IMG/VR virus record: IMGVR_UViG_3300048687_000087
Location: 13,413-77,412 of that record
Strand: one strand, 5' to 3'
Source of the DNA: a virus
Length of the DNA stretch: 64,000 bases
The notes beneath the pieces were generated by a model, which saw only the letters and a list, made by a program, of their open reading frames with translations, made no database searches and was not told the DNA's origin. Of the stretch, positions 2,706 through 17,856 are shown one piece after another (the stretch's first letter is position 1; the number at the start of each line of letters is the position of its first letter). Made by a program: the position numbers and the translations under genes.

Positions 2706-2918
2706 ATGCGGCCCCTATTGCTCCTGCTCGTGGCGGCTGTCCTCGCGCTATTCGGTAAATGCCCGGAAGCTGTCACGGCCCTCGGTGCTACGGCCGGCCT
2801 CATCTTCGGAGGCCTCCTTCACGTACTCGCCGAGCCCGCCCTCCTCGCCGCCATCGGCGCCGGCCTGGCCATCACCGTCATCCGCGCCGGACGGGCGCAC
2901 GCACGAGAGGCCCATTGA
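2706..2918 (+). CDS. Small membrane protein (Spd-like position)
   Basis: GAGGAGG RBS; hydrophobic 70 aa. Confidence 0.65.
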   Translation: MRPLLLLLVAAVLALFGKCPEAVTALGATAGLIFGGLLHVLAEPALLAAIGAGLAITVIRAGRAHAREAH

Positions 2919-2992
2919 TGCGCGCGCTCTACCTGCTCGCCATGTTCTTCCCGCTGATCCTGCTCGCCTTCCTCCTCGGACGAGGTTTCTAG
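2918..2992 (+). CDS. 24-aa hydrophobic peptide, translationally coupled on both sides
   Basis: TGATG overlap at start, TAGTG overlap at end; MRALYLLAMFFPLILLAFLLGRGF. Confidence 0.5.
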   Translation: MRALYLLAMFFPLILLAFLLGRGF

Positions 2993-3816
2993 TGAACGCT
3001 CCACCGTCCCGCATCGGTTGGGATCCGCTCGTTGCGGTGTCCCTGATTGCCGGTGTCGGGTTCACGGCGATCGCCGAGTACCAGCTCGCCAGAACAATCG
3101 GCGCGCCCGTCCCGGTGGCGGTACTCCTGCCCGTCGCCCTCGACGTGTACGTCGTCGCTGCGATCCGTCGCTCCCGCGGCCGGGACATCGCCCTCGCGCT
3201 CCTGTTGATGGGCGTCGCGCAGGTGTCAGCGCACATGCTCGAAGCCGGCGTCGTGGAGATCTCAGTACCGCTCGTCGCCGCCGTGTCGGTACTAGTACCG
3301 CTCGTCATCTGGCGAGTGCACGCACTGGCGGTACTGCCCGACAAGCAGCACGTGAAATCCGGTACCAAAGCGGGGGTCGCCGAGCATCCGGTACCGGATG
3401 CCACCGTCGAGCGAGTACCGGCACCGGAGACCGTCGCAGTACCGGATGCCGACCCGGTCCCGGTACCGGCTGCGAGCCGCCCGGAACTCGAAGCCGTACC
3501 GGAGTCAGTACCGGACCCGGTACCGGTACGGCCGCGTCGCCGCACCAGCAAGAGGACCGGGCGCAGTTCCGCCCCCAAGGCCCGCCCCAAGAAGACCGGT
3601 ACTGCCTCGTTCGACGAGCACGTCCGTACCGCCATCGACTGGCTCGCCGACGACCCGACCCTGTCCGGTACCGCCATCGGCAAGAAGCTCGGTACCGGCG
3701 ACTCCTACGGCCGGCGCGTCCGCCGCGAAGCCCTCGCCCAAGCCGGTACCGAACCGGCTCCTGGCCCCGAGCACCGGGACCACGACAGCAACGTCCCGAC
3801 CCTCACCGGAAGCTGA
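2992..3816 (+). CDS. Spd-like membrane protein (about 4 TM, Pro-rich linker, C-terminal HTH)
   Basis: GTG start at 2992; AEYQLARTIG..LPVALDVY TM region; LSGTAIGKKLGTGDSYGRRV HTH-like end; directly upstream of the traB-like gene. Confidence 0.6.
   Translation: MNAPPSRIGWDPLVAVSLIAGVGFTAIAEYQLARTIGAPVPVAVLLPVALDVYVVAAIRRSRGRDIALALLLMGVAQVSAHMLEAGVVEISVPLVAAVSVLVPLVIWRVHALAVLPDKQHVKSGTKAGVAEHPVPDATVERVPAPETVAVPDADPVPVPAASRPELEAVPESVPDPVPVRPRRRTSKRTGRSSAPKARPKKTGTASFDEHVRTAIDWLADDPTLSGTAIGKKLGTGDSYGRRVRREALAQAGTEPAPGPEHRDHDSNVPTLTGS
3075..3752. repeat. Dense cluster of GTAC(C) / CCGGTACCGG motifs inside the Spd-like gene
   Basis: About 20 GTAC cores counted by eye, occurring in different codon phases (GTA-CCG, GGT-ACC, TAC). 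Confidence 0.75.
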
Positions 3817-3819
3817 CCC

Positions 3820-5955
3820 ATGACCACGACCGAGCCGATAACCGAGGTCGAAGAACGGCCTCTCAAGCTGGTCAAGCCGCCCGCCACCGAGACGCCCACG
3901 AAGACCCGTGCCGAGCGGCAGCGACTACGCCGCCTCAAGGCTGTGCTCGCCGACGAGCGCACCCGCGACGTGTACCGGCTCGCCGTCCGCCACGGCGCTT
4001 ACGTTGCGGGCGGCGCCCGGATCATCACCCGCCGCGGATGGGACGACCGCAGTACCGCCCGCTACCAGCGGATGATCCGCACCGCTGAAGCCGCAGGGAA
4101 CCGTGAACTCGCCGCCGACTGGGAAGAGCGCGCCCACCGGTTCCGGCAAGCACGCCACCAGCGCCGCATGGACCTCCTCACTTCCATGCGCAACGCGCCC
4201 AAAGCCGTCGGAGCCGGTGCCCTCACCGGCACGGGACTGCTCGCCGTCACCGGGATCGCCATCGCCGTCGCCAACAAGAACATCGCCGACATACTGCTGC
4301 CCTTCGAGTTCGTCATCGGCATCGTGAGCTGGGCATACGTCATCGCCAGCGTGGTGTGGGCGACCGTGAAGCTCGCAGGCCCCAGCCTGGCTGTGCTCGC
4401 CCTGTGGAACCTCGGACGCCAGCGGCAGGCGGCCCCGGCGTGGGCGCTGCCGGAGAAACTCCGCACTGACGGAGGCCCGATCACCCCGTCGATCGTGGTG
4501 AAAGCCTTCCGTGACCTGCGGATTAGCGACCTGAAGAAGGCCATCCTGGACATGGAGGATGGCGGCGCATCCATGCTGTCGCCGATCGTCATCGCAGGCT
4601 GCGGCGTCGAAGTCGACGTCACCTTGCCGTCCAGCGTCTCCACCGACGAGATCGAGGCAAAGCGGCGCAAGCTCGCCGAGAACCTCAACCGGCACGAGCA
4701 CGAGCTGTACATTTCTGTCGCTCCGCAGCCGCGGACGGTGAAGCTGTGGATCGCCGACTCCGGTGCTCTCGACGAGCCGATCGGGCCGTCGCCGCTGGTC
4801 ACAGACCCTGGCATGACCGCCGACTACAAGACCGGTCGTGCACCGTGGGGTGTCGACCTGCGCGGCGACGCCGTGTTGATGAGCCTGTTCCAGAAGATGG
4901 TGCTGGTCACGGGCCTGTCCAACCAGGGGAAGACGGCATCGTTGCGGGCCCTGGCTCTGTGGCTGGCTTTCGACCCGTCCGTCGAGTTCCGTATCGGTGA
5001 CCTCAAGGGCATCGGCGACTGGCGAATGTTCGTCGGCCTCGCCACCGTCGTGATCGAGGGGCCGACGGACGAGCACGTCATGGACGTCACGCACATGGTC
5101 GAGGACGGGTTCGAGGAGATGAACCGGAGGCTGCAGGCCCCCGAGGGCACTGTGTTCAAACCGCTGGTCATCATCGTTGACGAGGCGCAGGTCGCCTACG
5201 GGTCGGGTGCCCGGGAGACCTATGTGACGGACAACGGGACCGTGAAGTTCGGGGCACCTTACGGCGGGTCCAAGAGCACGAGCAGGTACTTCCGGGCCGT
5301 CAAGGGCATCCACGACCAGGGCCGCGCCGTCAACGTGCTGATCTGGGAAGGCACCCAGGACCCGACGAACGAAAACCTGCCCAAGCGGTCCCGCGAGGGC
5401 AACCACATCCGGGCAGCGCTGGTCCTCGGCACCAAGTCCCAGGCCGAGATGGCGCTCGGCGAGGCGCCCGTAGAGAAGGGCGCCGCACCGCACAAGCTGC
5501 GGCAGGGCTTCGACAAGGGACAACTCGTAGCCGCAGGTGAGGGCGTCCCGCTGGCCCCCGGCCAGGTGTCGCTGAACGTGCGCACGCACTACATCAGCAA
5601 CGACGACGCGAAGGAAGTCGCGGACCGGGCCAAGGCGCTGCGCAGGAAGGTCACCACGCTGCACAAGCTGGAGCCCGTCGAGGAACTGGACCCGCTGGCC
5701 GACATCGCAATCGTCATTGGCAGTACGGCGCGCATGCGGACGCAGGAAGTCCTTCAACTGCTGGCGGAACGCAACCCGGCTGGCTACCGAGAGTGGACGT
5801 TCCAGGACCTGAAGGAGGCCCTGGGAGTCGTCGACGCAGCCCCGCACAAGAGCGACGGGCAGATGGTCGTGGACCAACAGAAGGTCCAACGGGCCCTCGC
5901 CGAACGCGACTCCAAGGACCAGGGAGGCGAGAAGAAGACAGGGAGTTCTCCCTGA
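3820..5955 (+). CDS. traB: FtsK/SpoIIIE-family DNA translocase, TraB-like conjugal transfer ATPase
   Basis: N-terminal TM segments, Walker A GLSNQGKT, EMNRR, Walker B IIVDEAQ, QGRA, GTQDP, C-terminal wHTH-like domain; Spd-like neighbours. Confidence 0.8.
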   Translation: MTTTEPITEVEERPLKLVKPPATETPTKTRAERQRLRRLKAVLADERTRDVYRLAVRHGAYVAGGARIITRRGWDDRSTARYQRMIRTAEAAGNRELAADWEERAHRFRQARHQRRMDLLTSMRNAPKAVGAGALTGTGLLAVTGIAIAVANKNIADILLPFEFVIGIVSWAYVIASVVWATVKLAGPSLAVLALWNLGRQRQAAPAWALPEKLRTDGGPITPSIVVKAFRDLRISDLKKAILDMEDGGASMLSPIVIAGCGVEVDVTLPSSVSTDEIEAKRRKLAENLNRHEHELYISVAPQPRTVKLWIADSGALDEPIGPSPLVTDPGMTADYKTGRAPWGVDLRGDAVLMSLFQKMVLVTGLSNQGKTASLRALALWLAFDPSVEFRIGDLKGIGDWRMFVGLATVVIEGPTDEHVMDVTHMVEDGFEEMNRRLQAPEGTVFKPLVIIVDEAQVAYGSGARETYVTDNGTVKFGAPYGGSKSTSRYFRAVKGIHDQGRAVNVLIWEGTQDPTNENLPKRSREGNHIRAALVLGTKSQAEMALGEAPVEKGAAPHKLRQGFDKGQLVAAGEGVPLAPGQVSLNVRTHYISNDDAKEVADRAKALRRKVTTLHKLEPVEELDPLADIAIVIGSTARMRTQEVLQLLAERNPAGYREWTFQDLKEALGVVDAAPHKSDGQMVVDQQKVQRALAERDSKDQGGEKKTGSSP

Positions 5956-6039
5956 GGGCCTCCCTGAGGCGCCTGACCCCATCTGACCAGCACGAATCGC
6001 TCTTTCAGGGAGGCAGGGAGGCGCTCGCAGCCTCCCTGA
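5920..6039. repeat. Cluster of seven CTCCCTG/CAGGGAG heptamers (candidate clt-like transfer locus)
   Basis: CAGGGAG at 5920, 5939, 6006, 6014; CTCCCTG at 5948, 5960, 6032. Confidence 0.65.
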
Positions 6040-6118
6040 AAGCCCCCGGAATCAGGGGTTTTCGAAGGAACGAGCCGGCTCCTCGACAACCCAGGACCGC
6101 ACGGAAACGAGGAAGCCG

Positions 6119-6859
6119 ATGCCATGCGTAGCCCACGACGAAGACCGACCCTGCGGCCGAGAGACCACCATGACCAGGCCCGTAGCGCTGTGTCACATCC
6201 ATCGTGTTCAGGTCGCACTCGCTGTCATGCCCGAGCTGCTGAGCGAACACCTGGCAAGCGCCGCAACGCCACTCGCAATACCGAGCCTCTTACAGGGGCC
6301 CCATGACCCCATCGTCTACTTCCTCGGCCACCGCGACCGCATCAAGATCGGGTTCACGACCAATCTCAAGAAGCGCGTCAACGCCCTCGCGCTGCGCCCC
6401 GGCAGCATCCTGCTGGCCCTGGACGGCAGCGCCGATCTCGAGCAGGCCCTGCACGCCCGCTTCGCTCCTGCGCAGGTCGGTGACACCGAGTGGTTCGACA
6501 GCACCCCAGAGATCCGGCACTACATCGACAACCGCAGCACGTGGGCGCATGGACTGGCGCGGCGAGGGCCGCTGGACAACCAGAGAAGGCCAACGCTCGA
6601 ACGGGCCTCGACCAATGCAGAGCGTGCAGTCCTGCTTGCCGATCTGGCAGAAGTTCTAGGAAGCGAGCCTCGTATGCGCACGAGGGAAGCACTGCAGCGT
6701 CTCGTCGAGAACGCGCCGGCCACGTATCGCAGCTGGACGTTCCGGGACCTCACCCAGGTACTTCGGGCCGCCAACTCGCCGCCTCGCACCTACCAGGGCT
6801 TTCCGGTCGTCGACCGGCAGTCCGTCCACACGGCTCTAGCCGCACAGCAGTCTCAGTAG
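6119..6859 (+). CDS. GIY-YIG/T5orf172-like protein fused to a copy of the TraB C-terminal domain
   Basis: VYFL..RIKIGFTTNLKKR..LEQALHARF..TEWF motif; C-terminus aligns with the TraB C-terminus; TTA codon at 6290. Confidence 0.75.
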   Translation: MPCVAHDEDRPCGRETTMTRPVALCHIHRVQVALAVMPELLSEHLASAATPLAIPSLLQGPHDPIVYFLGHRDRIKIGFTTNLKKRVNALALRPGSILLALDGSADLEQALHARFAPAQVGDTEWFDSTPEIRHYIDNRSTWAHGLARRGPLDNQRRPTLERASTNAERAVLLADLAEVLGSEPRMRTREALQRLVENAPATYRSWTFRDLTQVLRAANSPPRTYQGFPVVDRQSVHTALAAQQSQ

Positions 6860-6889
6860 CTACTTCACCCACCCAACCGAAGGAGTTCC

Positions 6890-7057
6890 GTGGCCAAGCC
6901 CAAGCCGTTGTACACGACCGGAGAGATCGCGCAGAACACGTTCATCGTCGGCACCGCCATGTTGCGCGGCGGGCGCCTCACCGACCGACAGAAGCGCCGT
7001 CTGGAACGAATCCGCGACAACGCCATGGACCGCGGCGGCGTCACCGACAAGCACTGA
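6890..7057 (+). CDS. Small hypothetical protein (55 aa, not in ORF track)
   Basis: GAAGGAG RBS, GTG start, open to TGA 7057. Confidence 0.6.
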   Translation: MAKPKPLYTTGEIAQNTFIVGTAMLRGGRLTDRQKRRLERIRDNAMDRGGVTDKH

Positions 7058-7080
7058 CCAACCCAACCCGAGGAGAACCC

Positions 7081-7293
7081 ATGTCCCACATGACCACCGC
7101 CCCGCCCGCCGTACCGGAGACCAGCCTGTCGATCGACACGTTCGAGACCGTCGGCACCCTCGACAACCTGCACCCCGCGAAGTGGACGTCGGTCGTCTAC
7201 GACCACGACGGCCAAATAGTCGCCAGCTCCGGCCTGAAGGACAGCGACCAGGAGTCCATCGACGCCGTCAACGCCCTGCTCGCCACGGTCTGA
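7081..7293 (+). CDS. Hypothetical protein
   Basis: GAGGAG RBS, ATG 7081. Confidence 0.65.
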   Translation: MSHMTTAPPAVPETSLSIDTFETVGTLDNLHPAKWTSVVYDHDGQIVASSGLKDSDQESIDAVNALLATV

Positions 7294-7314
7294 GACCGAG
7301 AGGAGACCAGCCCC

Positions 7315-7839
7315 GTGAACGCGCTGCCCGAGCCGCGCCCGACCACAGTGGCCGGGCAGCCTGGCCCCACCCTGTCCGACTCCATCCTCGAAGCCGCGGT
7401 CGACAAGGCCATCGAGACGGCCCGCGAGGAGGGCACCAGCCCGCAGGTGTTGATCGGGAACACGCCGCACGTCTCACAACCCGACAGCCGCATCGTGCCC
7501 ACCTGGGCGACGGGCATCGCGGTCGCCTCCCTCGGAGTTGGCGCCGGAGCGACGGGTCTCGGCTGTGCTGCCTGGCTGCTGTTCCAGGGGCTGTCGATGG
7601 TCAGCGTTCCGAGCCTGGAGCGGTTCGCATGGATCGTCATCGCCCCGTTCGCCGGACTCGCCATGGTCCTCACCGCCGGCGCCGCAGCCATCTCCAAGGC
7701 CAGGAAGGCGACCCCGCGCGAGATCCATAACCACAACAGCGGACCGGTCTTCGAGGACAACCGGCAGGACCACAGCACGACATCCACCCACAACAAGTGG
7801 TGGGGCAGGAGCTCCACCGAAACGGAGGGAAAGCCATGA
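7315..7839 (+). CDS. Two-TM membrane protein, Spd-like
   Basis: Two hydrophobic segments followed by EIHNHNSGPV; lies in the transfer cluster. Confidence 0.6.
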   Translation: MNALPEPRPTTVAGQPGPTLSDSILEAAVDKAIETAREEGTSPQVLIGNTPHVSQPDSRIVPTWATGIAVASLGVGAGATGLGCAAWLLFQGLSMVSVPSLERFAWIVIAPFAGLAMVLTAGAAAISKARKATPREIHNHNSGPVFEDNRQDHSTTSTHNKWWGRSSTETEGKP

Positions 7840-8159
7840 CCGACACCCCCACCACCCCGACCGTCGAGCAGTTGAGCGAGTCCGCGATCGCGCTCGGCGT
7901 CGAGGCGTACAAGGCCCACCGGGCGGCAGAACACACCGCGCCCGTCGTCAAGATGGCGTCCGCCGCCATTGCCAAAGCCGGGCAGGCCGGTGCTTCTGTC
8001 GGTTGGATCGCCGACCAGATCGACCTTCGGTATGCCGCATACCTGCTCAACATCCACACCCAGCCCGGATTTGAGGAGACCGTGGCGCTTGACGGAGACC
8101 TCGAGCACCCGGAGAACGCGGCCGGCGAGGTAGTCGACCTGACCGGGAAGGCGGCATGA
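7836..8159 (+). CDS. Hypothetical protein
   Basis: ATGA coupling, GGAGG RBS. Confidence 0.65.
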   Translation: MTDTPTTPTVEQLSESAIALGVEAYKAHRAAEHTAPVVKMASAAIAKAGQAGASVGWIADQIDLRYAAYLLNIHTQPGFEETVALDGDLEHPENAAGEVVDLTGKAA

Positions 8160-8353
8160 GCGGGCCCCTCGCACCGAAGCGACTCGCCACGCTTGCCGCG
8201 GGTACGACGGCCGCGCTCGCCGCGGTCGCCGGCGCCAGTCATGCGGCGGGTGCACCCGAGACGCTCGTCGCCGCCACGGTCGGTGTCCTCGGCTTCGGCG
8301 GGGTATCCGTCGCCGCCGCCATACGCGGACAGAAGCAGGAGGCGGTCCGGTGA
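8156..8353 (+). CDS. Small membrane protein
   Basis: ATGA coupling; hydrophobic. Confidence 0.6.
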   Translation: MSGPLAPKRLATLAAGTTAALAAVAGASHAAGAPETLVAATVGVLGFGGVSVAAAIRGQKQEAVR

Positions 8354-8787
8354 CGATGCAGACGCCCATGAGTATCGGGGACGCGTTCAACGGCTTCGAT
8401 TTCCGCACCAACGAGGGGCCCGAAGGGACCGACTACTTCTTCGCCGGACACCTCACGGCCGTACAGATCGCAGAAACGTACTACGCGATCTACCCCGAGC
8501 ACCGGACCCGATTCCCGTACACCGTTGACCCGGGCAGCGTCCGCCACACGTGGACGCGGTTCACTGAGCACGCCGACGACTGCTATCTCGTGACGGGCGA
8601 CGAGGAGCCGGGCCCGCTCAACTTCGAGGAGTTCTACATCTGTTGCACCTGCCACTCCGCAGGTAACTCGGAGGTGGGCACCGGCTACGAATACCGGCAC
8701 GCCCACCCCGCCACAGAAGGCCAGTCCGGGGCGATACCCGTTACGTGGGTGTCCATCCCCATGGCCCGCGAGGAGCTCGCTGCCTGA
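8350..8787 (+). CDS. Hypothetical protein
   Basis: GTGA coupling; 145 aa. Confidence 0.65.
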   Translation: MTMQTPMSIGDAFNGFDFRTNEGPEGTDYFFAGHLTAVQIAETYYAIYPEHRTRFPYTVDPGSVRHTWTRFTEHADDCYLVTGDEEPGPLNFEEFYICCTCHSAGNSEVGTGYEYRHAHPATEGQSGAIPVTWVSIPMAREELAA

Positions 8788-8801
8788 CCCGCAACATCAG
8801 C

Positions 8802-8830
8802 GCGCCCCGGCAGGTCTAGTGCCGGGGCGC
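8802..8830 (+). terminator. Hairpin terminator ending the accessory/transfer operon
   Basis: GCGCCCCGGCA / TGCCGGGGCGC 11-bp stem just after a stop codon. Confidence 0.6.
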
Positions 8831-8887
8831 TGCTGTGACCGTACATGGAGCCGACTGTTCCTCTCGCAGCGCGGGCAGACCAGTCGC

Positions 8888-9295
8888 ATGTCGACGCCCG
8901 GGAACGACGAGCAACGGCGGGCCGAAGACGCCCGCTTGTGGGAGCACTGGCTGCACGAAGAGGAAATGATCTTCCAGCGCGGCAACCTGTTCCTCATCGC
9001 TCAATCGCTCCTCGCCGTCGCGTACAGCACGATCGCGACAGGCATCGGGGAGCATGGGCAAGCGCGCGTCATGGCCGCGTTCGGGATCGCGCTGACCCTG
9101 GGCTGGCTGTTCGTGGGCGACCGGCACCTCAAGTTTCACCAGGCGATCTATCGGCGCACTTTGGGGAGATTCCCTGATGTTGCAGCTACTGAGGCCGCTT
9201 GTCGCAGGCCGGGCCCCACTACGCTGCCGTTCATCATTTATGGCCTGCCGTCCATGGCCGCGGTCATGTGGATTGTTCTGCTGATCATCACCTAG
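8888..9295 (+). CDS. Three-TM membrane protein (moron, possible phage-defence effector)
   Basis: EEEMIFQRGNLFLIAQSLL followed by TM helices; stand-alone gene between hairpins. Confidence 0.55.
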   Translation: MSTPGNDEQRRAEDARLWEHWLHEEEMIFQRGNLFLIAQSLLAVAYSTIATGIGEHGQARVMAAFGIALTLGWLFVGDRHLKFHQAIYRRTLGRFPDVAATEAACRRPGPTTLPFIIYGLPSMAAVMWIVLLIIT

Positions 9296-9338: not shown

Positions 9339-9341
9339 TCG

Positions 9342-11240: not shown

Positions 11241-11268
11241 GGTGTTCATTCTGGAGTCGAGGAGACCC

Positions 11269-11871
11269 ATGGCCGGCCCGTTTCCATACCGGAAGAAGAA
11301 CACGCCCGACCGCGTCCATGCTGCCGAGGTCGTCTTCGAACTCAAGGCGCGCGGCCTGACGTTCGCCGCCATCGACGATCTCACCTCCGATCCCGACGGC
11401 CCCACCGGCGGGCATCGCATTGCCGCCAGCACTGCCCGCGATCTCGTTCGTGAAGAAGCCGCGCGCCGCCTCGACCCGAAGATCGACACGTGGCGGGCCG
11501 TCGTCCTCGAACGCATCGAGAACGCCCTCCCGCGCCTCGACCGCCTTGAGCAAGTCGCCCTCGGCGTCCTGGAGAAGCACCACATCACCGTCAACAACGG
11601 GCGGATCATCAAGCTCGACGACGGCGAACCCCTCGCCGACTACGGGCCCGTCCTCGCCGCCATCGACCGCCTCGTCAAAATCGAAGGCGAACGCACGAAG
11701 AACCACGACGCCCTCCGCAAACTCTTCGGCCTCGACATGCCCGTCCGAGTCGACGCCACCATCACCGAAACCACCCAACAGGACATTGAACTGCAGGAAC
11801 TCATACGGGAAGCCAAGGTGAGGGTGGCGGGCGAAGAGCAGCAGATCACCGAAGGCGTCGACGAGGCCTGA
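11269..11871 (+). CDS. Terminase small subunit-like HTH protein
   Basis: Directly upstream of TerL; ELKARGLTFAAI HTH and RKLFGLDMP motif. Confidence 0.7.
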   Translation: MAGPFPYRKKNTPDRVHAAEVVFELKARGLTFAAIDDLTSDPDGPTGGHRIAASTARDLVREEAARRLDPKIDTWRAVVLERIENALPRLDRLEQVALGVLEKHHITVNNGRIIKLDDGEPLADYGPVLAAIDRLVKIEGERTKNHDALRKLFGLDMPVRVDATITETTQQDIELQELIREAKVRVAGEEQQITEGVDEA

Positions 11872-11872
11872 C

Positions 11873-13420
11873 ATGGTGACCGCGGTCCGCCCGCGCGGCT
11901 ATCTCGACGGCCTGGATGCCGAGTCGTTCGACCTTGACGTCTACCTCGCCCGGTTCGATGCCCGCCTTCTCGCCGACGAGGAGGGCCGGCGCACGCTCAC
12001 GCGCCTGGACCCGCTGCTGTTTGCGCTCGTCTACGCCCGGCATCATCTCCGAGATCCCGGGGGTCGGTTGACGTTCGGTGACGCGCACCTGGACTGGTGC
12101 CGTGCGGCCCGCGCCTGGGTGCGGCCAGCGATCACGCCAGCCGAGCAGCGTGACGCCTACGTCGCTCCTCGCAACATGGGCAAGAGCACTTGGTGGTTCC
12201 TGCTACTGCCGCTGTGGGCTGCCGCCCACGGGCATGCCCGGTTCGCTGCGGCGTTCGCATCGTCCGCGACTCAGGCGGAGACGCATCTGGGCACGTTCAA
12301 GCGGGAGATCGACTCGAATGAACTGCTGCGCCGCGACTTTCTCGACCTGTGCAGTCCCGCGAAGCGGCCGTCGGGTGGGAACGTCGCGGACACGCAGAAC
12401 ATGTACATCGCGAAGAACGGGTTCGTGTTCGCGGCCCGCGGTATCGACTCGTCGAACCTCGGCATGAAGGTTGGTGAAGCCCGACCCGACCTCATCCTGT
12501 GCGATGACATTGAGCCCGATGAGTCGAGCTACAGCCTTGACCTGGCCCGCAAGCGGCGCACCACGCTCATCGACTCGATCCTGCCGCTCAATGTGTACGC
12601 GAGGGTGGTCATCTCCGGCACGGTCACCATGCCGGGCAGCATCATCCACCAACTGGTCAAGCACGGTCGGGGCGTCGAGACCGCGGACTGGATTGGCGAG
12701 GAGGGTTTCCGTGCGCATTGCACCGCGCCGATCGTGCAGCGTGCCGACGGAACGGAGCGCAGCGTGTGGCCGGCGAAGTGGCCGCTCGCCTACCTCAAGT
12801 CGATTGAGCACACCCGCTCGTTCGCGAAGAACTACGCCAACGACCCGATGGGTGCGGACGGTGAGCTGTGGGCGCCGGAAGACTTCCGCTATCCCGGCGA
12901 CGAGGGTGTGGATCCGGTGACGCACATGATGCTGTCGATCGACCCGGCGGTCACCGCGAAGAAGGGCTCGGACTATACGGGGATGGCGGTCGTGTCGTGG
13001 TCGGCGCGGCATCGCCGGTGCACGGTGCATGCGGCGATCGGCTTGAAGATTCAGCCGGGCCCGCTGCTGCGGGAGCGAGTGCTGGCTCTGCTGGATGAGT
13101 ATCCGCAGATCGGTCTGATTCTGATCGAGGTCAACCAGGGTGGCGATACGTGGGAGGCGATCCTTCATGGCATGCCGGTGAAGGTGAAGACGGTTTCGCA
13201 GGCGGAGAACAAGTTCACGCGCGCCGAGGGGGTGTTGAACCACTATCAGCGCGGCCGAGTCATTCACGCCCGCCGCCTGGTGGAGGCTGAGCAGCAGATG
13301 TGCGCGTTTCCGAAGGCCCCGCACGACGACCTGGTCGACGCTGTGGGTTCGGCGATCCGCCGGTTCATCCCCAACAAGCCGCGCGAGATCTTCAAGGCGA
13401 GTAGCGCCAGTTACCTTTGA
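11873..13420 (+). CDS. terL: Terminase large subunit
   Basis: APRNMGKST Walker A, LILCDDIE Walker B, SIDPA and HDDLVDA nuclease motifs. Confidence 0.95.
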   Translation: MVTAVRPRGYLDGLDAESFDLDVYLARFDARLLADEEGRRTLTRLDPLLFALVYARHHLRDPGGRLTFGDAHLDWCRAARAWVRPAITPAEQRDAYVAPRNMGKSTWWFLLLPLWAAAHGHARFAAAFASSATQAETHLGTFKREIDSNELLRRDFLDLCSPAKRPSGGNVADTQNMYIAKNGFVFAARGIDSSNLGMKVGEARPDLILCDDIEPDESSYSLDLARKRRTTLIDSILPLNVYARVVISGTVTMPGSIIHQLVKHGRGVETADWIGEEGFRAHCTAPIVQRADGTERSVWPAKWPLAYLKSIEHTRSFAKNYANDPMGADGELWAPEDFRYPGDEGVDPVTHMMLSIDPAVTAKKGSDYTGMAVVSWSARHRRCTVHAAIGLKIQPGPLLRERVLALLDEYPQIGLILIEVNQGGDTWEAILHGMPVKVKTVSQAENKFTRAEGVLNHYQRGRVIHARRLVEAEQQMCAFPKAPHDDLVDAVGSAIRRFIPNKPREIFKASSASYL

Positions 13421-13433
13421 TTCAAAGGTGAAG
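13419..13433 (+). promoter_or_regulatory. Late-gene motif GATTCAAAGGTGAAG, copy 2
   Basis: Exact repeat located in the terL-portal gap. Confidence 0.55.
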
Positions 13434-13456
13434 CTATATGCTGGCCTTGATGAGAG

Positions 13457-15007
13457 GTGGCCGCTGTGTCGTTGAGTGAACTGATGTACGGGATCGGCGA
13501 GCTCGACGACGCGCGCCCCGGCTACCGCACCGCCCAGCAGTACTACGACGGCAACGTCCCCGAAGTATTCGCCTCCGCCCGCCTCCGCCGCGCCCTCGAA
13601 GACACGGGCGTCGACTTCCGGTTGAACTTCGCCAAAACCCCGGTCTCTGCCGTGCTCGACCGCCTCGAGATCGCAGCGATCACCGGCGCCGACGACGACC
13701 ACACCAAACTCATCGCCAAGGTGTGGGACGACAACGTGATGGACCTCGAGGCCCCCGACATCCACTGCCACGCCTGCACCCTCGGCGATGCCTACCTCAT
13801 CGTTCTCCCCGTCGAAGACGACAACGGGCAGGTCGTCGGGGTGGAAATGCACTACAACTCCCCGCAGACCGTCCGGGCAATCTACTCACAGGAGAACCCG
13901 CGCGAAGTCGACTACGTCATCAAGCAGTGGTGCGAGGAGCGGACCCTCGGCAAGGTCCAGCGGGCCGAGCTGTACTACGCAGACCGCACCGAGCGCTGGG
14001 CCACTAAGCCCGGTTCGGATGGGAAGCAGAAGGGGGACTGGGGGCATTGGCTCGCAGACCCCGACGAGGAGGGGGCAGTCCAAGACCCGGATTCGTGGAT
14101 CATCGAACACGAATGGGGTCGCCCGCCCGTCTTCCACTTCCGCACCGACCGACCCTACGGGCGACCGGTGCACATCGATGCCTACGGCCCGCAGAACGCC
14201 ATCAACAAGCTCAGCATCACGCACATGGGCACCGTCGACTACCAGGGCTTCCCGCAGCGCTACGCGCTCACCGACGCCGCCACCACCGACACTTCGGACC
14301 TCGAACCCGGAGACTTCGAAGACTTCCCGCCCGACGACGCCAGTAGTGGGCCCACCGACACAGGCGACGACAGCTCCCTGAAGGCCGGGCCCGGCGAAGT
14401 GTGGATGCTCCGCGGCTTCAAGTCCGTCGGCCAGCTCGACGCAGCGCAGCCGTCCGTCTTCCTCGACCCGATCTTGTTCGAAGTGCGGGCCATGGCGCAG
14501 ATCACCACCACCCCCCTGCACCTCTTCGACCCGCAAGGGGACGTGCCATCGGGAGAGTCGCTACGAGCGAAGGACGGCCCGTTCGTCAAGAAGATCCGCA
14601 ACCTGCAGCGTCACCTGGGCTCAACCTGGCGCGAGGCCTTCCAGTTCGCACTCGAACTCCTCGGTTTCCCGGCCGACATGGTCGATGTCCGCTGGGTGCC
14701 CGCCGCCACCGTGGAAGACAAGACAGGCTGGGAAACCGCCACAGAGAAGGTCCGCAACGGCGTCCCCCGCCGCCAAGTGCTCCTTGAAGCCGGCTACCGC
14801 GAAGAGCAGGTCGATAAGTGGCTGGCCGGCGTCGACGACGCCGAGCTCGCACGGCGCACCGACATCCTCGCCGCTGTTGCGGACAGTGCGCAGAAGTTGG
14901 GCGCCGCCACCACGCTCGGCGTCGTCAGCAGCGAGCAGGCGCAAGCCCTCCTCAACGGCGCGCTCTCCGATATTGAACTTCTCGCCGACGTTGAGGCCGT
15001 CACATGA
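13457..15007 (+). CDS. Portal protein (SPP1 Gp6-like)
   Basis: YYDG, NFAK, FPQR, PSGESLR motifs; position after terL. Confidence 0.9.
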   Translation: MAAVSLSELMYGIGELDDARPGYRTAQQYYDGNVPEVFASARLRRALEDTGVDFRLNFAKTPVSAVLDRLEIAAITGADDDHTKLIAKVWDDNVMDLEAPDIHCHACTLGDAYLIVLPVEDDNGQVVGVEMHYNSPQTVRAIYSQENPREVDYVIKQWCEERTLGKVQRAELYYADRTERWATKPGSDGKQKGDWGHWLADPDEEGAVQDPDSWIIEHEWGRPPVFHFRTDRPYGRPVHIDAYGPQNAINKLSITHMGTVDYQGFPQRYALTDAATTDTSDLEPGDFEDFPPDDASSGPTDTGDDSSLKAGPGEVWMLRGFKSVGQLDAAQPSVFLDPILFEVRAMAQITTTPLHLFDPQGDVPSGESLRAKDGPFVKKIRNLQRHLGSTWREAFQFALELLGFPADMVDVRWVPAATVEDKTGWETATEKVRNGVPRRQVLLEAGYREEQVDKWLAGVDDAELARRTDILAAVADSAQKLGAATTLGVVSSEQAQALLNGALSDIELLADVEAVT

Positions 15008-16044
15008 TGGCCCGACGCCGCCACCGGCCCGCCGAGCTGCTGGCGTTCATACGCGGCGAGCAGACCGACGCGGTGCGCGGCCTTGAGGACCGCATCGCCG
15101 CCGACGCCCTCGGCGACTCTGCGGAGCGGTTCGATGAACTGCAACGGCGCACCCTCATGGCGTGGACTACCGCATTCGGCAGCCCACAGCAGGACGCCAC
15201 CGACGTGGGGGCGCTGCGCCGCATCCTGGCCGCCGTCCGCGCCGCAGTGCACCGCATCCTCGGACCGCTCGCCCCTCACTCCCAGAAGGCGCTAACCGCC
15301 CGCCTGGAGGAGGCTGTGCAGCTCGGCGCGCGACAGCATTCCGCCTACCTCGAACGCACAACTACCCGCCGCGGCATACAGGTTGCCGCCCGGGCCAGCC
15401 GCAGTCTGCGCGACACTGCCGCCATCATCGGCGACAGCATTGCCCGGCACCGTGACCGCGCGCTCGGCCTGCTGCAGACCGGTGTCGCATCCCGCTGGTC
15501 CCGCGTTGCCACCGGAATCGGTGCCGCCCGCAGCGCCCTCAGTGCAGTACGTGCCCACATCACCTGGACTGTTGGTAAAGCCGTCAACGAAGGACTCACC
15601 GAGAGCATCCGCGCGGTCGGCGCTCGCAAGCTGTGGGTGTCGGAGCGGGACGCCTGCGTGTCCTGCACCGCCTACGCCGGACTCGTCGTCGACGCCGATC
15701 AGGACTTCCCCGGCGGACTCTCCTGGGACCCGCAGCAGCGCGGACGCACCGAACCGGTCGCCGGGCCGCCCTTGCACCCCAACTGCCGCTGCCGGCTTGC
15801 CGCCTGGGAAGACGAGTGGGCGGTCGAAGGCGTGCCGTCGATGCCCGAGGCGCTGCGCCGCGAGGCCCGCCGCTCCATCGCCCGCGGCTGGTCGCTGCCC
15901 ACCGAATCCGGTGCCGCCCGTGTCCGGGCGGCCCGCGAGCTCCTCCGCACTGGGGCGGGCCTGCCGAAGAGCGTGGAGGAGTTCGCCCGGCTTGCCGTAT
16001 CGGCAGGCCGCTTCCAGAACCGCACCGTCCCTACCGGCCCGTGA
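15004..16044 (+). CDS. MuF-like minor head protein
   Basis: CVSC..PPLHPNCRC motif. Confidence 0.85.
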   Translation: MMARRRHRPAELLAFIRGEQTDAVRGLEDRIAADALGDSAERFDELQRRTLMAWTTAFGSPQQDATDVGALRRILAAVRAAVHRILGPLAPHSQKALTARLEEAVQLGARQHSAYLERTTTRRGIQVAARASRSLRDTAAIIGDSIARHRDRALGLLQTGVASRWSRVATGIGAARSALSAVRAHITWTVGKAVNEGLTESIRAVGARKLWVSERDACVSCTAYAGLVVDADQDFPGGLSWDPQQRGRTEPVAGPPLHPNCRCRLAAWEDEWAVEGVPSMPEALRREARRSIARGWSLPTESGAARVRAARELLRTGAGLPKSVEEFARLAVSAGRFQNRTVPTGP

Positions 16045-16076
16045 TGGGCAACCCGGAATCCCGAGATGGGAGCACC

Positions 16077-16805
16077 ATGAACACCACCGAGCTCGACGGC
16101 ATCAGCCTGCCGCCCGGAACCGTCATCGGCTACGTCGCCGGCCGACCCGTCTACAACATCGCCGGAAGCTCCGGCGAAGGAGAAGCCGACGGGGGAGACA
16201 GCGAGACTTCGGCAGACGAGCCGGAAGGCGACGAGGCGCCCCATGACACAACCGGCGGCGAAGAGGTCGAGGAGGCTGAGGAGCGGGAGACGCCCAAGCC
16301 GGCGCCGCCAGCCGACAAACCCGACGCGTACACGGCGCCGACTGAGGCGGAGTGGCGCAAGACGCAGGCCGCCTTGAAGAAGGCCAACGAGGACGGCAAG
16401 CGGCACCGGCTGCGGAACAAGGAGCTCGAAGAGGCGTCCCGCGCCAACGAGACGGAGCACGAGAAAGCACTGAGAGAGGAGCGGGAGAAGGGCGAAGGCC
16501 GGTTCCGTGCACCCTTGGTGAAGGCAGCGGCGAAGGCTGCGCTCGCGGAAGCGGGTGTCAGCGGTCCTGCCGATCGTGTGCTGCGGCTCCTTGACCTCGA
16601 TGGGCTGTCGGTCGACGACGAGGGTGACGTCATCGGCCTGGACGGGGAGATCGACCGGATACGCGGCGAGTACCCGGAGTTCTTCCAGAACGCGAAGATG
16701 AAGCCGAAGGCAAGGCCAACAGCTGCGGACCGTAAGCCGGTTGAGGAGAAGCCCAAGTCCGCGGCGGAGCGGCACGCTGCTCGTGTGCTCGGCCGTACCG
16801 CTTGA
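16077..16805 (+). CDS. Capsid scaffolding protein
   Basis: Acidic N-terminus, coiled coil, YPEFF; upstream of the major capsid gene. Confidence 0.8.
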   Translation: MNTTELDGISLPPGTVIGYVAGRPVYNIAGSSGEGEADGGDSETSADEPEGDEAPHDTTGGEEVEEAEERETPKPAPPADKPDAYTAPTEAEWRKTQAALKKANEDGKRHRLRNKELEEASRANETEHEKALREEREKGEGRFRAPLVKAAAKAALAEAGVSGPADRVLRLLDLDGLSVDDEGDVIGLDGEIDRIRGEYPEFFQNAKMKPKARPTAADRKPVEEKPKSAAERHAARVLGRTA

Positions 16806-16938
16806 CACCAGCAGGTATATTCATCACCAGGTGAATTGATTCGGTGATCGGATCATCCGCCGCCCAGTACTGCGAGAGCGCCCGTGATGGGGCCCGCAAC
16901 CCACAGCAGCCCCATCACACGCCCACAGGAGGGCACCC

Positions 16939-17856
16939 GTGGCACGCAACACCTACGAGGCCTGGATCCCGGAGGAAGACAGCTCCGAGGTCATCACCCG
17001 CGTACAGCAGATGTCCGCCGTCGAGGCCCTCGCCTCCCCGGAGCCCATGAGCTCCAACACCAAGAGCATTCCGCGCTCCGCGGGCGTCGGCGTCAGCCTC
17101 GTCGACAAGGGCGGCGCCTACAGCGAAGACACGTCCGCCAACGACGACGTCGTCCTCACCGCGAAGAAGGTCGGCAAGGCGATCCGTATCGCCGAGGAAG
17201 ACATCGACGACTCGCTCGCCGACATCCTCGCCACCAAGATGAAGGACTGGGCGACCTCCTACTCCAAGTACATCGACAACGCGAGCCTCGCCGTCACCGC
17301 CGCGCTCGGCGTCAACGTGCCGTTCGCGTCGGTGTACTACACGCTCACGCAGACCGACGCGGCCACGGGCTACACCGCCAACGACAACATCACCACCGCC
17401 GCGAGCACCGGGGTCACCTACGACAACCTGTCCGCGGTCCTCGACGACGTCGAAGGCGGCGACTACTTCGACCTGTCCCGCACCGTCGTCATCGCACACC
17501 CGTCCTTCCGTGGCGTGCTGCGCACCATCAAGGACGACCAGAAGCAGCCCATTTTCGTACAGGGCCAGGGCGGCGACCGCGGCACTCCCGACACCCTGTT
17601 CGACCTGCCGGTGCGCTGGTCGCTCGGCTGCCGCCTCCACGCGACCGCCACCGACGCGCCTACCGGCAAGCCCATCCTTGTCGTCGCGAACCAGGACTTC
17701 CTGCGTCTCGGCCGCCGTTCGGGCCCGGAGTCCATCTTCATCGACGGCCGCGACGGACTGTCCGCGCTCACCGACGAGTCCATCCTCAAGATGCGCGCCC
17801 GCCGCGCCTTCAACCTGTCGCACCCGAAGGCCGCTGCCGTCCTGGTGGGGGCCTGA
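16939..17856 (+). CDS. Major capsid protein
   Basis: 305 aa; WIPEE start, HK97-like ending MRARRAF; position. Confidence 0.88.
   Translation: MARNTYEAWIPEEDSSEVITRVQQMSAVEALASPEPMSSNTKSIPRSAGVGVSLVDKGGAYSEDTSANDDVVLTAKKVGKAIRIAEEDIDDSLADILATKMKDWATSYSKYIDNASLAVTAALGVNVPFASVYYTLTQTDAATGYTANDNITTAASTGVTYDNLSAVLDDVEGGDYFDLSRTVVIAHPSFRGVLRTIKDDQKQPIFVQGQGGDRGTPDTLFDLPVRWSLGCRLHATATDAPTGKPILVVANQDFLRLGRRSGPESIFIDGRDGLSALTDESILKMRARRAFNLSHPKAAAVLVGA

What the first reader, a model, noticed from the sequence alone, without database searches (positions are those of the whole stretch)
2706..8787. A complete-looking tailed phage carries a Streptomyces plasmid-type conjugation module (TraB + Spd-like genes)
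Seen: a 711-aa FtsK-family ATPase with TM segments and a C-terminal DNA-binding domain, flanked by several small membrane proteins and two short-repeat clusters, about 5 kb from an intact terminase-to-lysin module. Established: Streptomyces plasmids and AICEs transfer dsDNA using a single TraB translocase acting on clt repeats, Spd proteins spread the element within mycelium, and GntR repressors (KorSA/TraR) control this. Inference: the phage may have two transmission routes, virions and hypha-to-hypha or cross-septum transfer of its excised circle. The second route would bypass receptors and extracellular defences. The resolvase with res-like site and the GntR genes elsewhere in the window fit this model.
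Basis: partly seen in the sequence, partly recalled or inferred. Interest (0 to 1): 0.85.

Follow-up and report, generated by a model that had tools for sequence, protein, structure and literature searches.

The report
Temperate Streptomyces phage carrying TraB pump
A complete, integrase-bearing tailed phage from soil carries the one-protein DNA pump (TraB), its matching docking repeats and regulators that Streptomyces plasmids use to push double-stranded DNA between hyphae. It may therefore also spread without virus particles, but this is untested and has a precedent in the plasmid-phage pZL12.

Summary
The window is the last 64 kb of a circular 77.3-kb IMG/VR virus contig. ORF 3820-5955 is a TraB-type translocase: AlphaFold pLDDT 90.7, best PDB folds are FtsK motors, hhalign to pIJ101 Tra E 4e-15, and 55-68% identity to AICE TraBs. 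Seven CAGGGAGG repeats straddle its stop codon. In 16 relatives the repeat sequence at this position changes together with the C-terminal winged-helix class, which is a clt signature. A GntR/UTRA repressor and a Pif-like Nudix gene lie just upstream of the window.

The module is physically part of a phage with TerL, portal, HK97 capsid, tape measure, amidase, tyrosine integrase and DnaB. One 31-kb contig at ~506x depth spans TraB to capsid with no mismatch.

The arrangement recurs. Seven of 15 IMG/VR relatives also hold a capsid gene, as do prophages of cultured Streptomyces, usually with TraB a few kb upstream of terminase-portal-capsid.

"Spd" identity is architecture only; sequence tests failed. 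Dual transmission is plausible but untested. pZL12 is the described precedent, and this scan has noted the same theme on other DNA (35 notes in at least 34 genomes). Verdict: real, a new variant of a known kind.

The parts
2706..2918 (+). 70-aa hydrophobic protein with 3 predicted membrane segments, the first gene of the membrane-protein/TraB block
   Evidence: GC3-based gene call; hydropathy; no Pfam, PHROG or NCBIfam family
2992..3816 (+). 274-aa protein (P0002): 4 N-terminal membrane helices, a Val-Pro-rich linker, a basic stretch and a C-terminal HTH-like tail. Its stop lies 3 nt before the TraB start. It is an Spd-like partner by architecture only.
   Evidence: About 50 homologues, found in the same contigs as TraB relatives, with weak tail hits to DUF2637. 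ESM Atlas neighbours are 'transfer protein spdA' (0.91) and DUF2637 clusters (lead only). No significant match to SpdB of pIJ101 or L001.
3359..3750 (.). Array of 10 CCGGTACC motifs (several as CCGGTACCGG palindromes) inside the P0002 coding sequence
   Evidence: 13 in the window against 2.0 expected. GTAC falls in all three codon phases, 13/6/2. Not conserved in more distant P0002 relatives. Function unknown.
3820..5955 (+). TraB-type dsDNA translocase (P0001, 711 aa): N-terminal helical/membrane part, FtsK-like motor and C-terminal winged-helix domain
   Evidence: PHROG 1358 FtsK/SpoIIIE-like, 1e-13. 55% identity to the Tra protein of AICE-like plasmid NZ_CP108827. Profile against PDB: FtsK 7e-14, then TcpA, then EccC. 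AF2 pLDDT 90.7. Foldseek top hits are FtsK motors. hhalign to pIJ101 Tra: probability 98.4%, E 4e-15.
5920..6038 (.). clt-like array: 7 copies of CAGGGAGG(C), direct and inverted, across the TraB stop codon and the first 85 nt downstream
   Evidence: Relatives carry an 8-mer cluster at the same place, and its sequence class matches the class of their C-terminal winged-helix domain.
6119..6859 (+). 246-aa protein (P0003): T5orf172/MUG113 (GIY-YIG-like) domain fused to a copy of the TraB C-terminal winged-helix domain
   Evidence: Pfam PF13455 5.5e-7 and PF10544 9.4e-6. 42% identity over 113 aa to TraB residues 590-699, E 8e-19. The nuclease-like domain lies near TraB in only 2 other loci, L006 and L057.
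6890..9295 (+). Six further small same-strand ORFs (6890-7057, 7081-7293, 7315-7839, 7797-8159, 8350-8787, 8888-9295). Two have membrane segments. They end the plus-strand block before the minus-strand genes.
   Evidence: Gene call; hydropathy; PHROG 19266, unknown function, for 7315-7839; weak 8xMP membrane family hit for 8888-9295
11242..17856 (+). Packaging and head module of the same element: small-terminase-position ORF, TerL (11873-13420), portal (13466-15007), MuF-like protein, scaffold and HK97 capsid (16939-17856)
   Evidence: PHROG 38 TerL 3e-70. Pfam SPP1_portal, Phage_scaffold and Phage_capsid above cut-off. A single 31-kb contig joins this module to TraB.
40872..42434 (-). Two GntR-family genes (78 aa HTH-only; 204 aa with a weak UTRA hit) in the lysogeny region. 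Any link to the transfer module is not shown.
   Evidence: Pfam PF00392 6.6e-13 and 2.8e-14
43080..44549 (-). Tyrosine integrase of the phage. It would let a transferred circle establish itself in a recipient.
   Evidence: PHROG 1 integrase 1.8e-30. DNA relatives at 65-73% identity in 10 of 151 Streptomyces genomes.

Best explanation
The region is a genuine plasmid/AICE-type transfer module that has become a conserved part of the genome of a temperate Streptomyces siphovirus.

The parts are:
- TraB, a membrane-anchored hexameric FtsK-like pump. Its C-terminal winged helix is expected to read the CAGGGAGG repeats (clt) at the end of its own gene.
- A translationally coupled 4-helix membrane partner and other small membrane proteins.
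- Just upstream of the window, a divergently placed GntR/UTRA repressor (the KorSA/TraR role) and a Nudix gene (the Pif role).

Proposed mechanism (inferred):
1. When the repressor is relieved, TraB loads on clt of the excised or replicating circular phage DNA.
2. TraB pumps the unprocessed double-stranded molecule across the envelope into a neighbouring hypha and/or across septal cross-walls.
3. The phage's own DnaB-based replication module and tyrosine integrase then establish the DNA in the recipient, or a lytic cycle starts there.

Shown here: the identity of the pump, the repeat/recognition-domain covariation, physical linkage to phage genes, and recurrence in other phages. Inferred: that the pump acts on the phage genome and gives a virion-independent route.
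For: **Pump identity**
- AF2 model pLDDT 90.7.
- Foldseek top hits are FtsK motor domains, E 7.5e-14, TM 0.61-0.67.
- The 57-sequence profile hits FtsK 7e-14, then TcpA 1e-11, then EccC 6e-9 in PDB.
- hhalign to the experimentally studied pIJ101 Tra gives probability 98.4%, E 4e-15.
- 55% identity over 94% of its length to the Tra protein of a 13.5-kb AICE-like plasmid that carries int, xis-like HTH, prim-pol, DUF3631, spdB and GntR genes.

**clt**
- 7 CAGGGAGG copies lie at 5920-6038.
- AGGGAGG clusters sit at the TraB stop in exactly the 6 loci with one winged-helix sequence class.
- [G/T]CAGTGA clusters sit there in the 7-8 loci with another class.
- This holds although the whole-protein tree groups the loci differently.

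**Regulators**
- GntR+UTRA at L002:9470-10237(-) and Nudix at L002:12306-12800(+).
- The Nudix protein is 74% identical to one directly upstream of TraB in L004.
- The KorSA and Pif roles are described in PMC2440964.

**Linkage**
- The contig ends overlap by 127 nt, so it is a circle without host flanks.
- In run X1 a 31-kb contig at depth ~506 covers 3754-20000 with 0 mismatches.
- Run X2 contigs tile 1778-16161.
- Run X3 has exact pieces on both TraB and head genes.

**Recurrence**
- G002, 72 kb and from another record, shares at least 20 proteins in the same order, with TraB at the same position, but has unrelated head genes.
- HK97 capsid genes occur in 7 of 15 IMG/VR records holding a TraB relative. 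In 6 of those 7 the capsid lies 6-15 kb downstream on the same strand.
- Portal follows a ~510-aa ORF downstream of TraB in G002 and G005.
- The same arrangement is seen in chromosomes of S. canus 299MFChir4.1 and Streptomyces sp. NPDC050625.

**Precedent**
- pZL12/phage ZL12 has an FtsK/SpoIIIE-like gene just upstream of its structural operon. According to PMC3583192, which cites Zhong et al. 2010, its conjugal transfer needs a major tra gene plus two adjacent genes.
Against: - No functional data of any kind, and no RNA run holds the sequence.
- The membrane partner is not detectably homologous to characterised SpdB proteins.
- The GntR/Nudix genes are 6-7 kb from TraB, separated by an array of micro-genes. 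Common regulation is therefore assumed, not shown.
- No close TraB homologue exists in 50,697 cultured phage records. No isolated phage of this type is available, and most genomic relatives sit in ordinary AICEs: 65 of the 80 best loci.
- Transfer of a prophage into a repressor-free recipient could simply trigger lysis (zygotic induction), so the benefit is not obvious.
- A 77-kb molecule is far larger than the 9-20-kb plasmids for which TraB transfer was shown. The large plasmid pZL12 (90 kb), however, is reported to transfer.
Confidence: 0.6

Rival explanations
1. The module is inert cargo: a remnant of an AICE that once inserted into, or recombined with, the phage. It is carried along without acting on the phage genome.
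For: - The module has no integrase or Rep of its own in the block.
- Most relatives of TraB are in ordinary AICEs.
- Phage-borne and AICE-borne TraBs are interspersed in the tree, which shows frequent exchange.
Against: - The ORF is intact and keeps all 200+ columns that are invariant among 14 relatives, including Walker A and B.
- clt and the recognition domain still match.
- The same position in front of the packaging genes is kept in phages whose head genes are unrelated. This argues for selection within phage genomes.
Confidence: 0.13
2. The pump serves the phage in another way than moving the phage genome to new cells. It could mobilise host chromosomal DNA or co-resident elements, act as a kil function or exclusion system against competing AICEs and plasmids, or help DNA partition during sporulation of lysogens.
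For: - TraB-type systems are known to mobilise chromosomal markers, and unregulated traB is toxic (a kil/kor pair, PMC4447253).
- The adjacent T5orf172-like protein carries the same recognition domain as TraB. It could cut clt-bearing DNA of rivals or process DNA.
- A Pif-like Nudix gene is an immunity function in pSAM2 (PMC2440964).
Against: - The clt array lies on the phage genome itself, so the phage DNA is the expected substrate.
- No evidence points to other targets. CAGGGAGG occurs only 7 times in the window, 5 of them in the array.
Confidence: 0.17
3. Assembly artefact, or two adjacent elements: the TraB block belongs to a separate AICE or plasmid that was joined to a phage contig or integrated next to a prophage.
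For: - The source is a soil metagenome.
- In run X1 no high-depth contig covers 2634-3753. A contig at about 20% of the main depth diverges at 3823.
Against: - A circular contig with a 127-nt overlap.
- Uniform ~506x depth, with one 31-kb contig running from TraB to the head genes.
- Run X2 contigs bridge 1778-4689 and 8640-11673 without mismatch.
- Related elements from other records have the same layout.
Confidence: 0.03

Closest known systems
pZL12 / Streptomyces phage ZL12 (GQ919031; Zhong et al. 2010, J Bacteriol 192:3747), with pSLE1 as a syntenic relative and pFP4 recalled from memory
   Same: - One circular element that combines a tailed-phage structural operon with a Streptomyces FtsK/SpoIIIE-type tra gene.
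- The tra gene (pZL12.71c) lies just upstream of, and on the same strand as, the packaging and structural genes, with a GntR regulator nearby.
- Transfer needs the major tra gene plus two adjacent genes (PMC3583192).
   Different: - pZL12 is maintained as a plasmid with ParA/ParB and RepA. The present element has no detected partition genes but has a tyrosine integrase.
- The Tra proteins are only distantly related: BLASTP E 0.015; profile probability 91.7%, E 7.6e-7.
- No pSAM2-type Nudix gene is annotated in pZL12.
- The pZL12 paper itself was not held.
AICEs of the pSAM2 type (TraSA, Spd, KorSA, Pif); the nearest sequenced example is Streptomyces sp. NBC_00859 plasmid NZ_CP108827
   Same: - TraB 55% identical over 94% of its length, with an 8-mer repeat cluster at the gene end.
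- GntR/UTRA repressor and Nudix gene.
- Small membrane proteins next to the pump.
   Different: - AICEs are 9-25 kb, carry their own int/xis and Rep (prim-pol, DUF3631 or RepSA) and have no virion genes.
- Here the module has no Rep or int of its own and is embedded in a 77-kb phage.
- The AICE-typical neighbours (RRQRL zinc protein, DUF6284, DUF6257, spdB) are absent.
TraB-clt-Spd system of Streptomyces plasmids pSVH1 and pIJ101
   Same: - Domain plan of TraB: membrane part, FtsK-like motor and C-terminal recognition domain.
- 8-bp repeats recognised by TraB (PMC4447253).
- Motor homologous to pIJ101 Tra.
- A divergently oriented GntR regulator, as in pIJ101.
   Different: - The repeat sequence differs.
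- The 4-helix partner is not detectably related to SpdB.
- No SpdA/sps palindrome of the described type is present (PMC4170104). An unrelated CCGGTACC array sits inside the partner gene instead.
SpdB2-like genes noted in phages phiC31 and VWB
   Same: Thoma et al. [quoted passage not shown]
   Different: As cited, those phages have only an SpdB2-like gene. Here the pump itself and its clt-like site are present.

Membership tests
Streptomyces TraB/Tra (plasmid and AICE dsDNA translocase) | FtsK/SpoIIIE-like alpha/beta motor with Walker A and B motifs | tested here: met
   AF2 pLDDT 90.7. Foldseek: FtsK motor E 7.5e-14, TM 0.61-0.67. Profile against PDB: FtsK 7e-14. GLSNQGKT and VIIVDEAQ motifs.
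Streptomyces TraB/Tra (plasmid and AICE dsDNA translocase) | Homology to an experimentally characterised Tra protein | tested here: met
   hhalign of the 57-sequence profile against pIJ101 Tra (KilA): probability 98.4%, E 4e-15 over 245 columns
Streptomyces TraB/Tra (plasmid and AICE dsDNA translocase) | N-terminal membrane anchor and a single ATPase domain (unlike the 3-domain EccC) | tested here: met
   Hydrophobic segments at 130-192; long helices 95-201 in the model; only one P-loop domain in 711 aa
Streptomyces TraB/Tra (plasmid and AICE dsDNA translocase) | C-terminal winged-helix domain that recognises 8-bp repeats (clt/TRS) on the element | tested here: inconclusive
   Topology at 625-702 fits a winged helix, pLDDT above 90. 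The repeat class at the gene end covaries with the domain's sequence class in 16 loci. Binding itself was not tested, and the domain was not searched alone by fold.
Streptomyces TraB/Tra (plasmid and AICE dsDNA translocase) | traB-dependent conjugal transfer and pock formation | not testable with these tools
   Needs a cultured lysogen and matings
SpdB / SpdB2 spread proteins | Sequence homology to characterised SpdB proteins | tested here: not met
   Profile of 25 P0002 relatives against pIJ101 SpdB (probability 1.2%) and against L001 spdB (8.1%). No Pfam or NCBIfam hit.
SpdB / SpdB2 spread proteins | Integral membrane protein with about four helices, encoded next to and co-inherited with traB | tested here: met
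   Four hydrophobic segments. Its stop is 3 nt before the traB start. Homologues lie in the same contigs as TraB relatives and upstream of TraB in L003, L007, L035, L038 and L052.
AICE (actinomycete integrative and conjugative element) | Own integration and replication modules, small size and no virion genes | tested here: not met
   No Rep or prim-pol homologue. The only integrase lies in the phage lysogeny region. A full virion, lysis and replication gene set is present.
Temperate tailed phage (Caudoviricetes, siphovirus-like) | TerL, portal, HK97 capsid, tape measure, lysin, integrase and repressor-like HTH | tested here: met
   TerL is 47-51% identical to Streptomyces phages Yara, Rooney and KimJongPhill. 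Virion formation itself was not tested.
Phage-plasmid (pZL12/P1-like extrachromosomal prophage) | Plasmid replication and partition genes (RepA, ParA/ParB) | tested here: not met
   No ParA, ParB or Rep family among about 60 proteins scanned. Many small ORFs were not scanned.

The most novel reading that the evidence does not exclude
A widespread, so far undescribed class of integrating Streptomyces phages uses a plasmid-type TraB pump with its own clt as a 'movement' system. The phage genome would pass as naked double-stranded DNA from hypha to hypha, or through septal cross-walls. It would then spread or lysogenise without adsorption, receptors or exposure to extracellular defences. These would be true conjugative phages, with recognition domain and clt swapped as a unit between phages and AICEs.
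Probability: 0.4. Interest if true: 0.85.

Novelty: new variant of a known kind. Interest (0 to 1): 0.6.

Why it matters
If the pump moves the phage genome, temperate phages of mycelial bacteria have a second, capsid-free transmission route. That route would bypass receptor resistance and other surface barriers. It would blur the line between phage, plasmid and AICE, and it could move host DNA as AICEs do.

The question is directly testable, because related prophages sit in cultured strains. The matched pairs of recognition domain and 8-mer repeat also give a natural set for studying TraB specificity.

The idea is not new in principle: pZL12 exists, and SpdB2-like genes were noted in phiC31 and VWB. 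What appears new, in the literature I could search, is its presence in integrating phages, the conserved position in front of the packaging genes, and its frequency.

Tried and rejected
- **Single-sequence searches of TraB.** Pfam gave only a weak AAA_22 hit, NCBIfam nothing useful, and PDB searches with the single sequence or the 14-sequence profile nothing. The first AF2 model, from a shallow alignment, was unusable at pLDDT 50. A deeper alignment from the representatives search solved this.
- **Phage collection.** megablast and tblastn found no relative of the module. Only an E 0.8 hit to FtsK-like genes of phages JustBecause and Kela appeared.
- **Spd identity.** BLAST against the AICE proteins, Pfam at E up to 10 and hhalign to two SpdB proteins were all negative. 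A literature search for DUF2637 was uninformative.
- **attB search.** The integrase region with its flanks was searched in 151 Streptomyces genomes. Only the integrase gene matched, with no hit to the flanks, so attP/attB remain unknown. No tRNA gene is in the window.
- **GntR operator.** The HutC-type core GTNTANAC is not found in intergenic DNA. A unique palindrome, TACCTTATTAGGTA, lies in the divergent promoter region and is only a candidate.
- **Promoter/terminator scan.** Nothing above chance.
- **RNA.** No RNA holder is listed for the stretch.
- **Closed or missing resources.** The pZL12 paper is not held.
- **Literature.** Searches for AICE+prophage+capsid gave no paper.
Full report
**1. 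What the window is**

The window is bases 13413-77412 of a single 77,412-bp IMG/VR virus record. The two ends of the record are identical over exactly 127 nt. That is the signature of a circular assembly, so the element is about 77.3 kb and has no host flanks.

GC content is about 67%, with third-position GC of 0.8-0.95. I called genes on that basis.

The element has a full temperate-phage gene set:
- Packaging, head and tail: TerL (PHROG 38, 3e-70), SPP1-type portal, MuF-like protein, scaffold, HK97 capsid, a 1236-aa tape-measure-sized ORF and a minor tail protein.
- Lysis: an amidase.
- Lysogeny: a tyrosine integrase (PHROG 1, 1.8e-30) and an HTH repressor-like gene.
- Early arm: HNH, DUF3799 exonuclease, AAA_24, DUF5131, Dam and Dcm methylases, DnaB helicase and an endonuclease.

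TerL is 47-51% identical to TerL of Streptomyces phages Yara, Rooney, Gibson and KimJongPhill.

**2. The observation**

ORF 3820-5955 encodes 711 aa with Walker A and Walker B motifs and hydrophobic helices at about residues 130-192. It is preceded by a 70-aa protein with three hydrophobic segments. Next comes a 274-aa protein with four hydrophobic segments, whose stop lies 3 nt before the ATPase start.

Two repeat clusters stand out from the whole 77-kb genome in a k-mer scan:
- CCGGTACC, 10 copies at 3359-3750. The window holds 13, where 2.0 are expected.
- CAGGGAGG(C), 7 copies (direct and inverted) at 5920-6038, across the stop codon of the ATPase.

**3. What the ATPase is**

Single-sequence searches were nearly blind: a weak AAA_22 hit in Pfam and nothing in PDB. 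PHROG 1358, 'FtsK/SpoIIIE-like', matched at 1e-13.

The best match in the plasmid collection is 55% identity over 94% of the length. It is the FtsK/SpoIIIE-domain protein of a 13.5-kb Streptomyces plasmid with the gene content of an AICE: integrase, HTH, prim-pol, DUF3631, spdB and GntR.

The family is large: more than 2600 proteins, almost all from Streptomyces. Some members at 60-74% identity carry a Pfam FtsK_SpoIIIE hit.

I collected diverse relatives with a full profile search and built a 57-sequence alignment. That alignment gave the following results:
- Against PDB sequences, the profile hits FtsK motors at 7e-14, the clostridial conjugation protein TcpA at 1e-11, EccC at 6e-9 and HerA more weakly.
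- AlphaFold2 gives a confident model (pLDDT 90.7, pTM 0.70).
- The best structural matches are FtsK motor domains (E 7.5e-14, TM 0.61-0.67 over about 440 columns), followed by TcpA, EccC and HerA.
- A profile comparison with the experimentally studied Tra (KilA) of pIJ101 gives 98.4% probability, E 4e-15.

The protein has one ATPase domain and an N-terminal helical/membrane part. Its C-terminal 80 residues have a winged-helix topology. That is the TraB plan as described in PMC4447253. It is not the plan of the three-domain EccC.

**4. The repeats at the gene end behave like a clt**

TraB proteins recognise 8-bp direct repeats in clt (PMC4447253). I took 15 relatives from IMG/VR plus the AICE-like plasmid and searched from 150 nt before to 200 nt after each TraB stop.

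All but a few carry a local cluster of an 8-mer there. The clusters fall into classes, and each class goes with a sequence class of the C-terminal domain:
- AGGGAGG: 3-6 local copies out of 4-9 in the whole locus. This class occurs in the window and in L004, L005, L006, L008 and L009. All of these have a C-terminus of the type '..RTQEVLQ..NP..YR.WTF.DL..'.
- [G/T]CAGTGA: found in L003, L007, L011, L012, L013, L016 and L017 (L015 more weakly). Their C-termini are of the type 'RVRTTEVLHRLK.RNH.VYEHW' or a third type.
- Neither motif occurs at the other class's loci.

The whole-protein tree groups the window's TraB with L010 and L003, which have other repeats. The recognition domain and its site therefore seem to move together as a unit. 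This covariation is the strongest sequence evidence that 5920-6038 is the loading site. Binding was not tested.

**5. Regulators**

Two candidate regulators lie just outside the window, at L002 (genome 1-13,500):
- A GntR+UTRA (HutC-type) gene at 9470-10237 on the minus strand. It is followed by a UTRA-only ORF and is divergent from the plus-strand block that runs to TraB.
- A Nudix gene at 12306-12800 on the plus strand.

In pSAM2 the GntR protein KorSA and the Nudix protein Pif keep the element quiescent and prevent redundant transfer (PMC2440964). The Nudix protein is 74% identical to one placed directly upstream of TraB in L004.

The two GntR genes inside the window (40872-42434) lie in the lysogeny region. 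I cannot tie them, or the resolvase, to transfer.

**6. The 'Spd' genes**

The 274-aa protein (P0002) has about 50 homologues. They occur in the same contigs as the closest TraB relatives and upstream of TraB in several loci. The pair is therefore co-inherited.

The weakest hits of the P0002 search carry DUF2637. The ESM Atlas places the protein near 'transfer protein spdA' and DUF2637 clusters (a lead only). A profile of the family does not match SpdB of pIJ101 or of the AICE-like plasmid (probabilities 1.2% and 8.1%).

I therefore call it an Spd-like partner by architecture and position only. The other small ORFs have no assignable family.

**7. Is the module really part of the phage?**

Three lines of evidence say yes.

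Assembly:
- In soil-metagenome run X1, one 31-kb contig at about 506x depth covers 3754-20000 with no mismatch. It runs from the TraB start through terminase, portal and capsid.
- In run X2 (about 9x), exact contigs tile 1778-16161 and bridge both sides of the module.
- A third run, X3, has exact pieces on both TraB and head genes at similar depth.
- X1 and X2 may be the source samples, so this shows consistency rather than independence.

A related phage:
- IMG/VR record G002 (72 kb, estimated 100% complete) shares at least 20 proteins with this element in the same circular order.
- Shared proteins include Dam (77%), Dcm (56%), amidase (55%), two lysis-region proteins (85% and 69%), a small GntR (68%) and TraB (67%).
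- Its head genes are unrelated, and TraB sits at the same place, at the end of the early arm in front of the packaging genes.

A survey:
- Seven of the 15 IMG/VR records with a TraB relative contain an HK97 capsid gene above Pfam's cut-off. One of them is a 35.8-kb record with terminal repeats.
- In six of the seven, the capsid lies 6-15 kb downstream of TraB on the same strand.
- In G002 and G005 a portal gene (PF04860) follows a terminase-sized ORF a few kb after TraB.
- In one-per-species bacterial genomes, 490 loci encode a relative. Of the best 80, 65 have AICE-type neighbours and 11 have hits to phage structural proteins.
- About eight of those 11 have the TraB, large ORF, portal, capsid order on the same strand.
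- For S. canus 299MFChir4.1 and Streptomyces sp. NPDC050625, Pfam confirms a capsid gene about 6 kb downstream.

The pump is thus mostly an AICE gene, with a recurrent minority in prophages. Phage-borne and AICE-borne copies are interspersed in the tree.

**8. How it most likely works**

- Shown: a TraB-type pump, a matching repeat array on the same molecule, a co-inherited membrane partner, KorSA- and Pif-like genes nearby, linkage to a complete phage, and a conserved position in several phages.
- Inferred: TraB loads on the array of the excised or replicating phage circle and pumps the double-stranded DNA into a neighbouring hypha or compartment. There the phage's own replication genes and integrase establish it, or a lytic cycle starts.
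- Two versions of this cannot be separated here. One is mating between mycelia. The other is spread across cross-walls within an infected mycelium, which Thoma et al. proposed for SpdB2-like genes of phiC31 and VWB (PMC4447253).
- Rivals are inert cargo, another use of the pump (mobilising other DNA, or kil/exclusion) and an assembly artefact. They are weighed in their own sections.

**9. Comparison with what is known**

The closest described element is pZL12/phage ZL12 (GQ919031). It is a 90-kb circular plasmid-phage with ParAB. Its FtsK/SpoIIIE-like gene pZL12.71c also lies just upstream of the structural operon, near a GntR gene. [quoted passage not shown]

pSLE1 is reported as syntenic with pZL12 (PMC4487206). 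PhiNon1 is another plasmid-phage-like element (PMC5431353).

The present element differs in three ways:
- It has an integrase and no detected partition genes.
- Its pump is of the pSAM2/AICE lineage, only remotely related to pZL12.71c.
- It carries a Pif-like Nudix gene.

No cultured phage in a collection of 50,697 records has a close homologue. I found no paper describing AICE-type TraB modules in integrating phages, though the library is incomplete.

Within this scan the same theme has been noted repeatedly on other DNA: 35 notes in at least 34 genomes. Those notes are unchecked and were not used as evidence. My own survey in section 7 points the same way.

**10. Verdict**

Novelty: a new variant of a known kind. 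Interest: moderate to high. The hypothesis is directly testable in cultured lysogens, and the matched pairs of recognition domain and repeat are a useful resource. The concept itself has a 2010 precedent.

Noticed in passing
window 6119-6859: A T5orf172/MUG113 (GIY-YIG-like) domain is fused to a copy of the TraB C-terminal winged-helix domain (42% identity over 113 aa, E 8e-19). The gene lies directly after the clt-like array. The nuclease-like domain is found near TraB in only two other loci, L006 and L057. It could be a clt-targeted nuclease or a competitor of TraB.
   Followed up: partly
window 2634-3823: The CCGGTACC/GTAC array lies inside the membrane-partner gene, and GTAC is read in all three codon phases. 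It is not conserved in distant relatives. In run X1 this is the only stretch without a high-depth contig, and a contig at about 20% of the main depth diverges at 3823. The region may be variable in the population.
   Followed up: partly
window TraB compared with L003, L005, L008 and L010: By whole-protein tree the window's TraB groups with L010 and L003. Its C-terminal domain and its repeat class, however, match L005, L008, L004, L006 and L009. The recognition domain and clt seem to be exchanged together as a cassette.
   Followed up: partly
L002:9470-10766 (genome coordinates, upstream of the window): A full GntR+UTRA gene is followed by a second ORF with only the UTRA effector domain (178 aa). 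Both resemble the AICE GntR. A unique AT-rich palindrome, TACCTTATTAGGTA, lies at L002:10880 in the divergent promoter region and is a candidate operator.
   Followed up: partly
window 31354-34371 (minus strand): Between the tail genes and the lysis genes lies an opposite-strand block. It encodes a group-1 glycosyltransferase, an NAD-dependent epimerase/dehydratase and a weakly glycosyltransferase-like protein. This may serve modification of a cell-envelope glycan or of the virion.
   Followed up: no
window 37789-38566: A small serine recombinase (resolvase domain, 204 aa) has four copies of CGTTCATC within the 500 nt around its start, out of 6 in the genome. This is a res- or inversion-site-like cluster. 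Its role is unknown.
   Followed up: no
L002:6031-7419: A 462-aa pentapeptide-repeat protein (Pfam 1.4e-42) lies in the region between the early genes and the GntR gene.
   Followed up: no
plasmid NZ_CP036456 (Streptomonospora litoralis, 90 kb), 46797-48257: This plasmid encodes a TerL 49% identical to the window's, annotated as hypothetical. It is a candidate phage-plasmid in another actinomycete genus.
   Followed up: no
window 1-20000, run X1: Depth of about 500x in a 4.3-Gbase soil metagenome, close to 1% of the data. This is unusually high for a single-copy prophage. It fits active replication or free virions at sampling.
   Followed up: no
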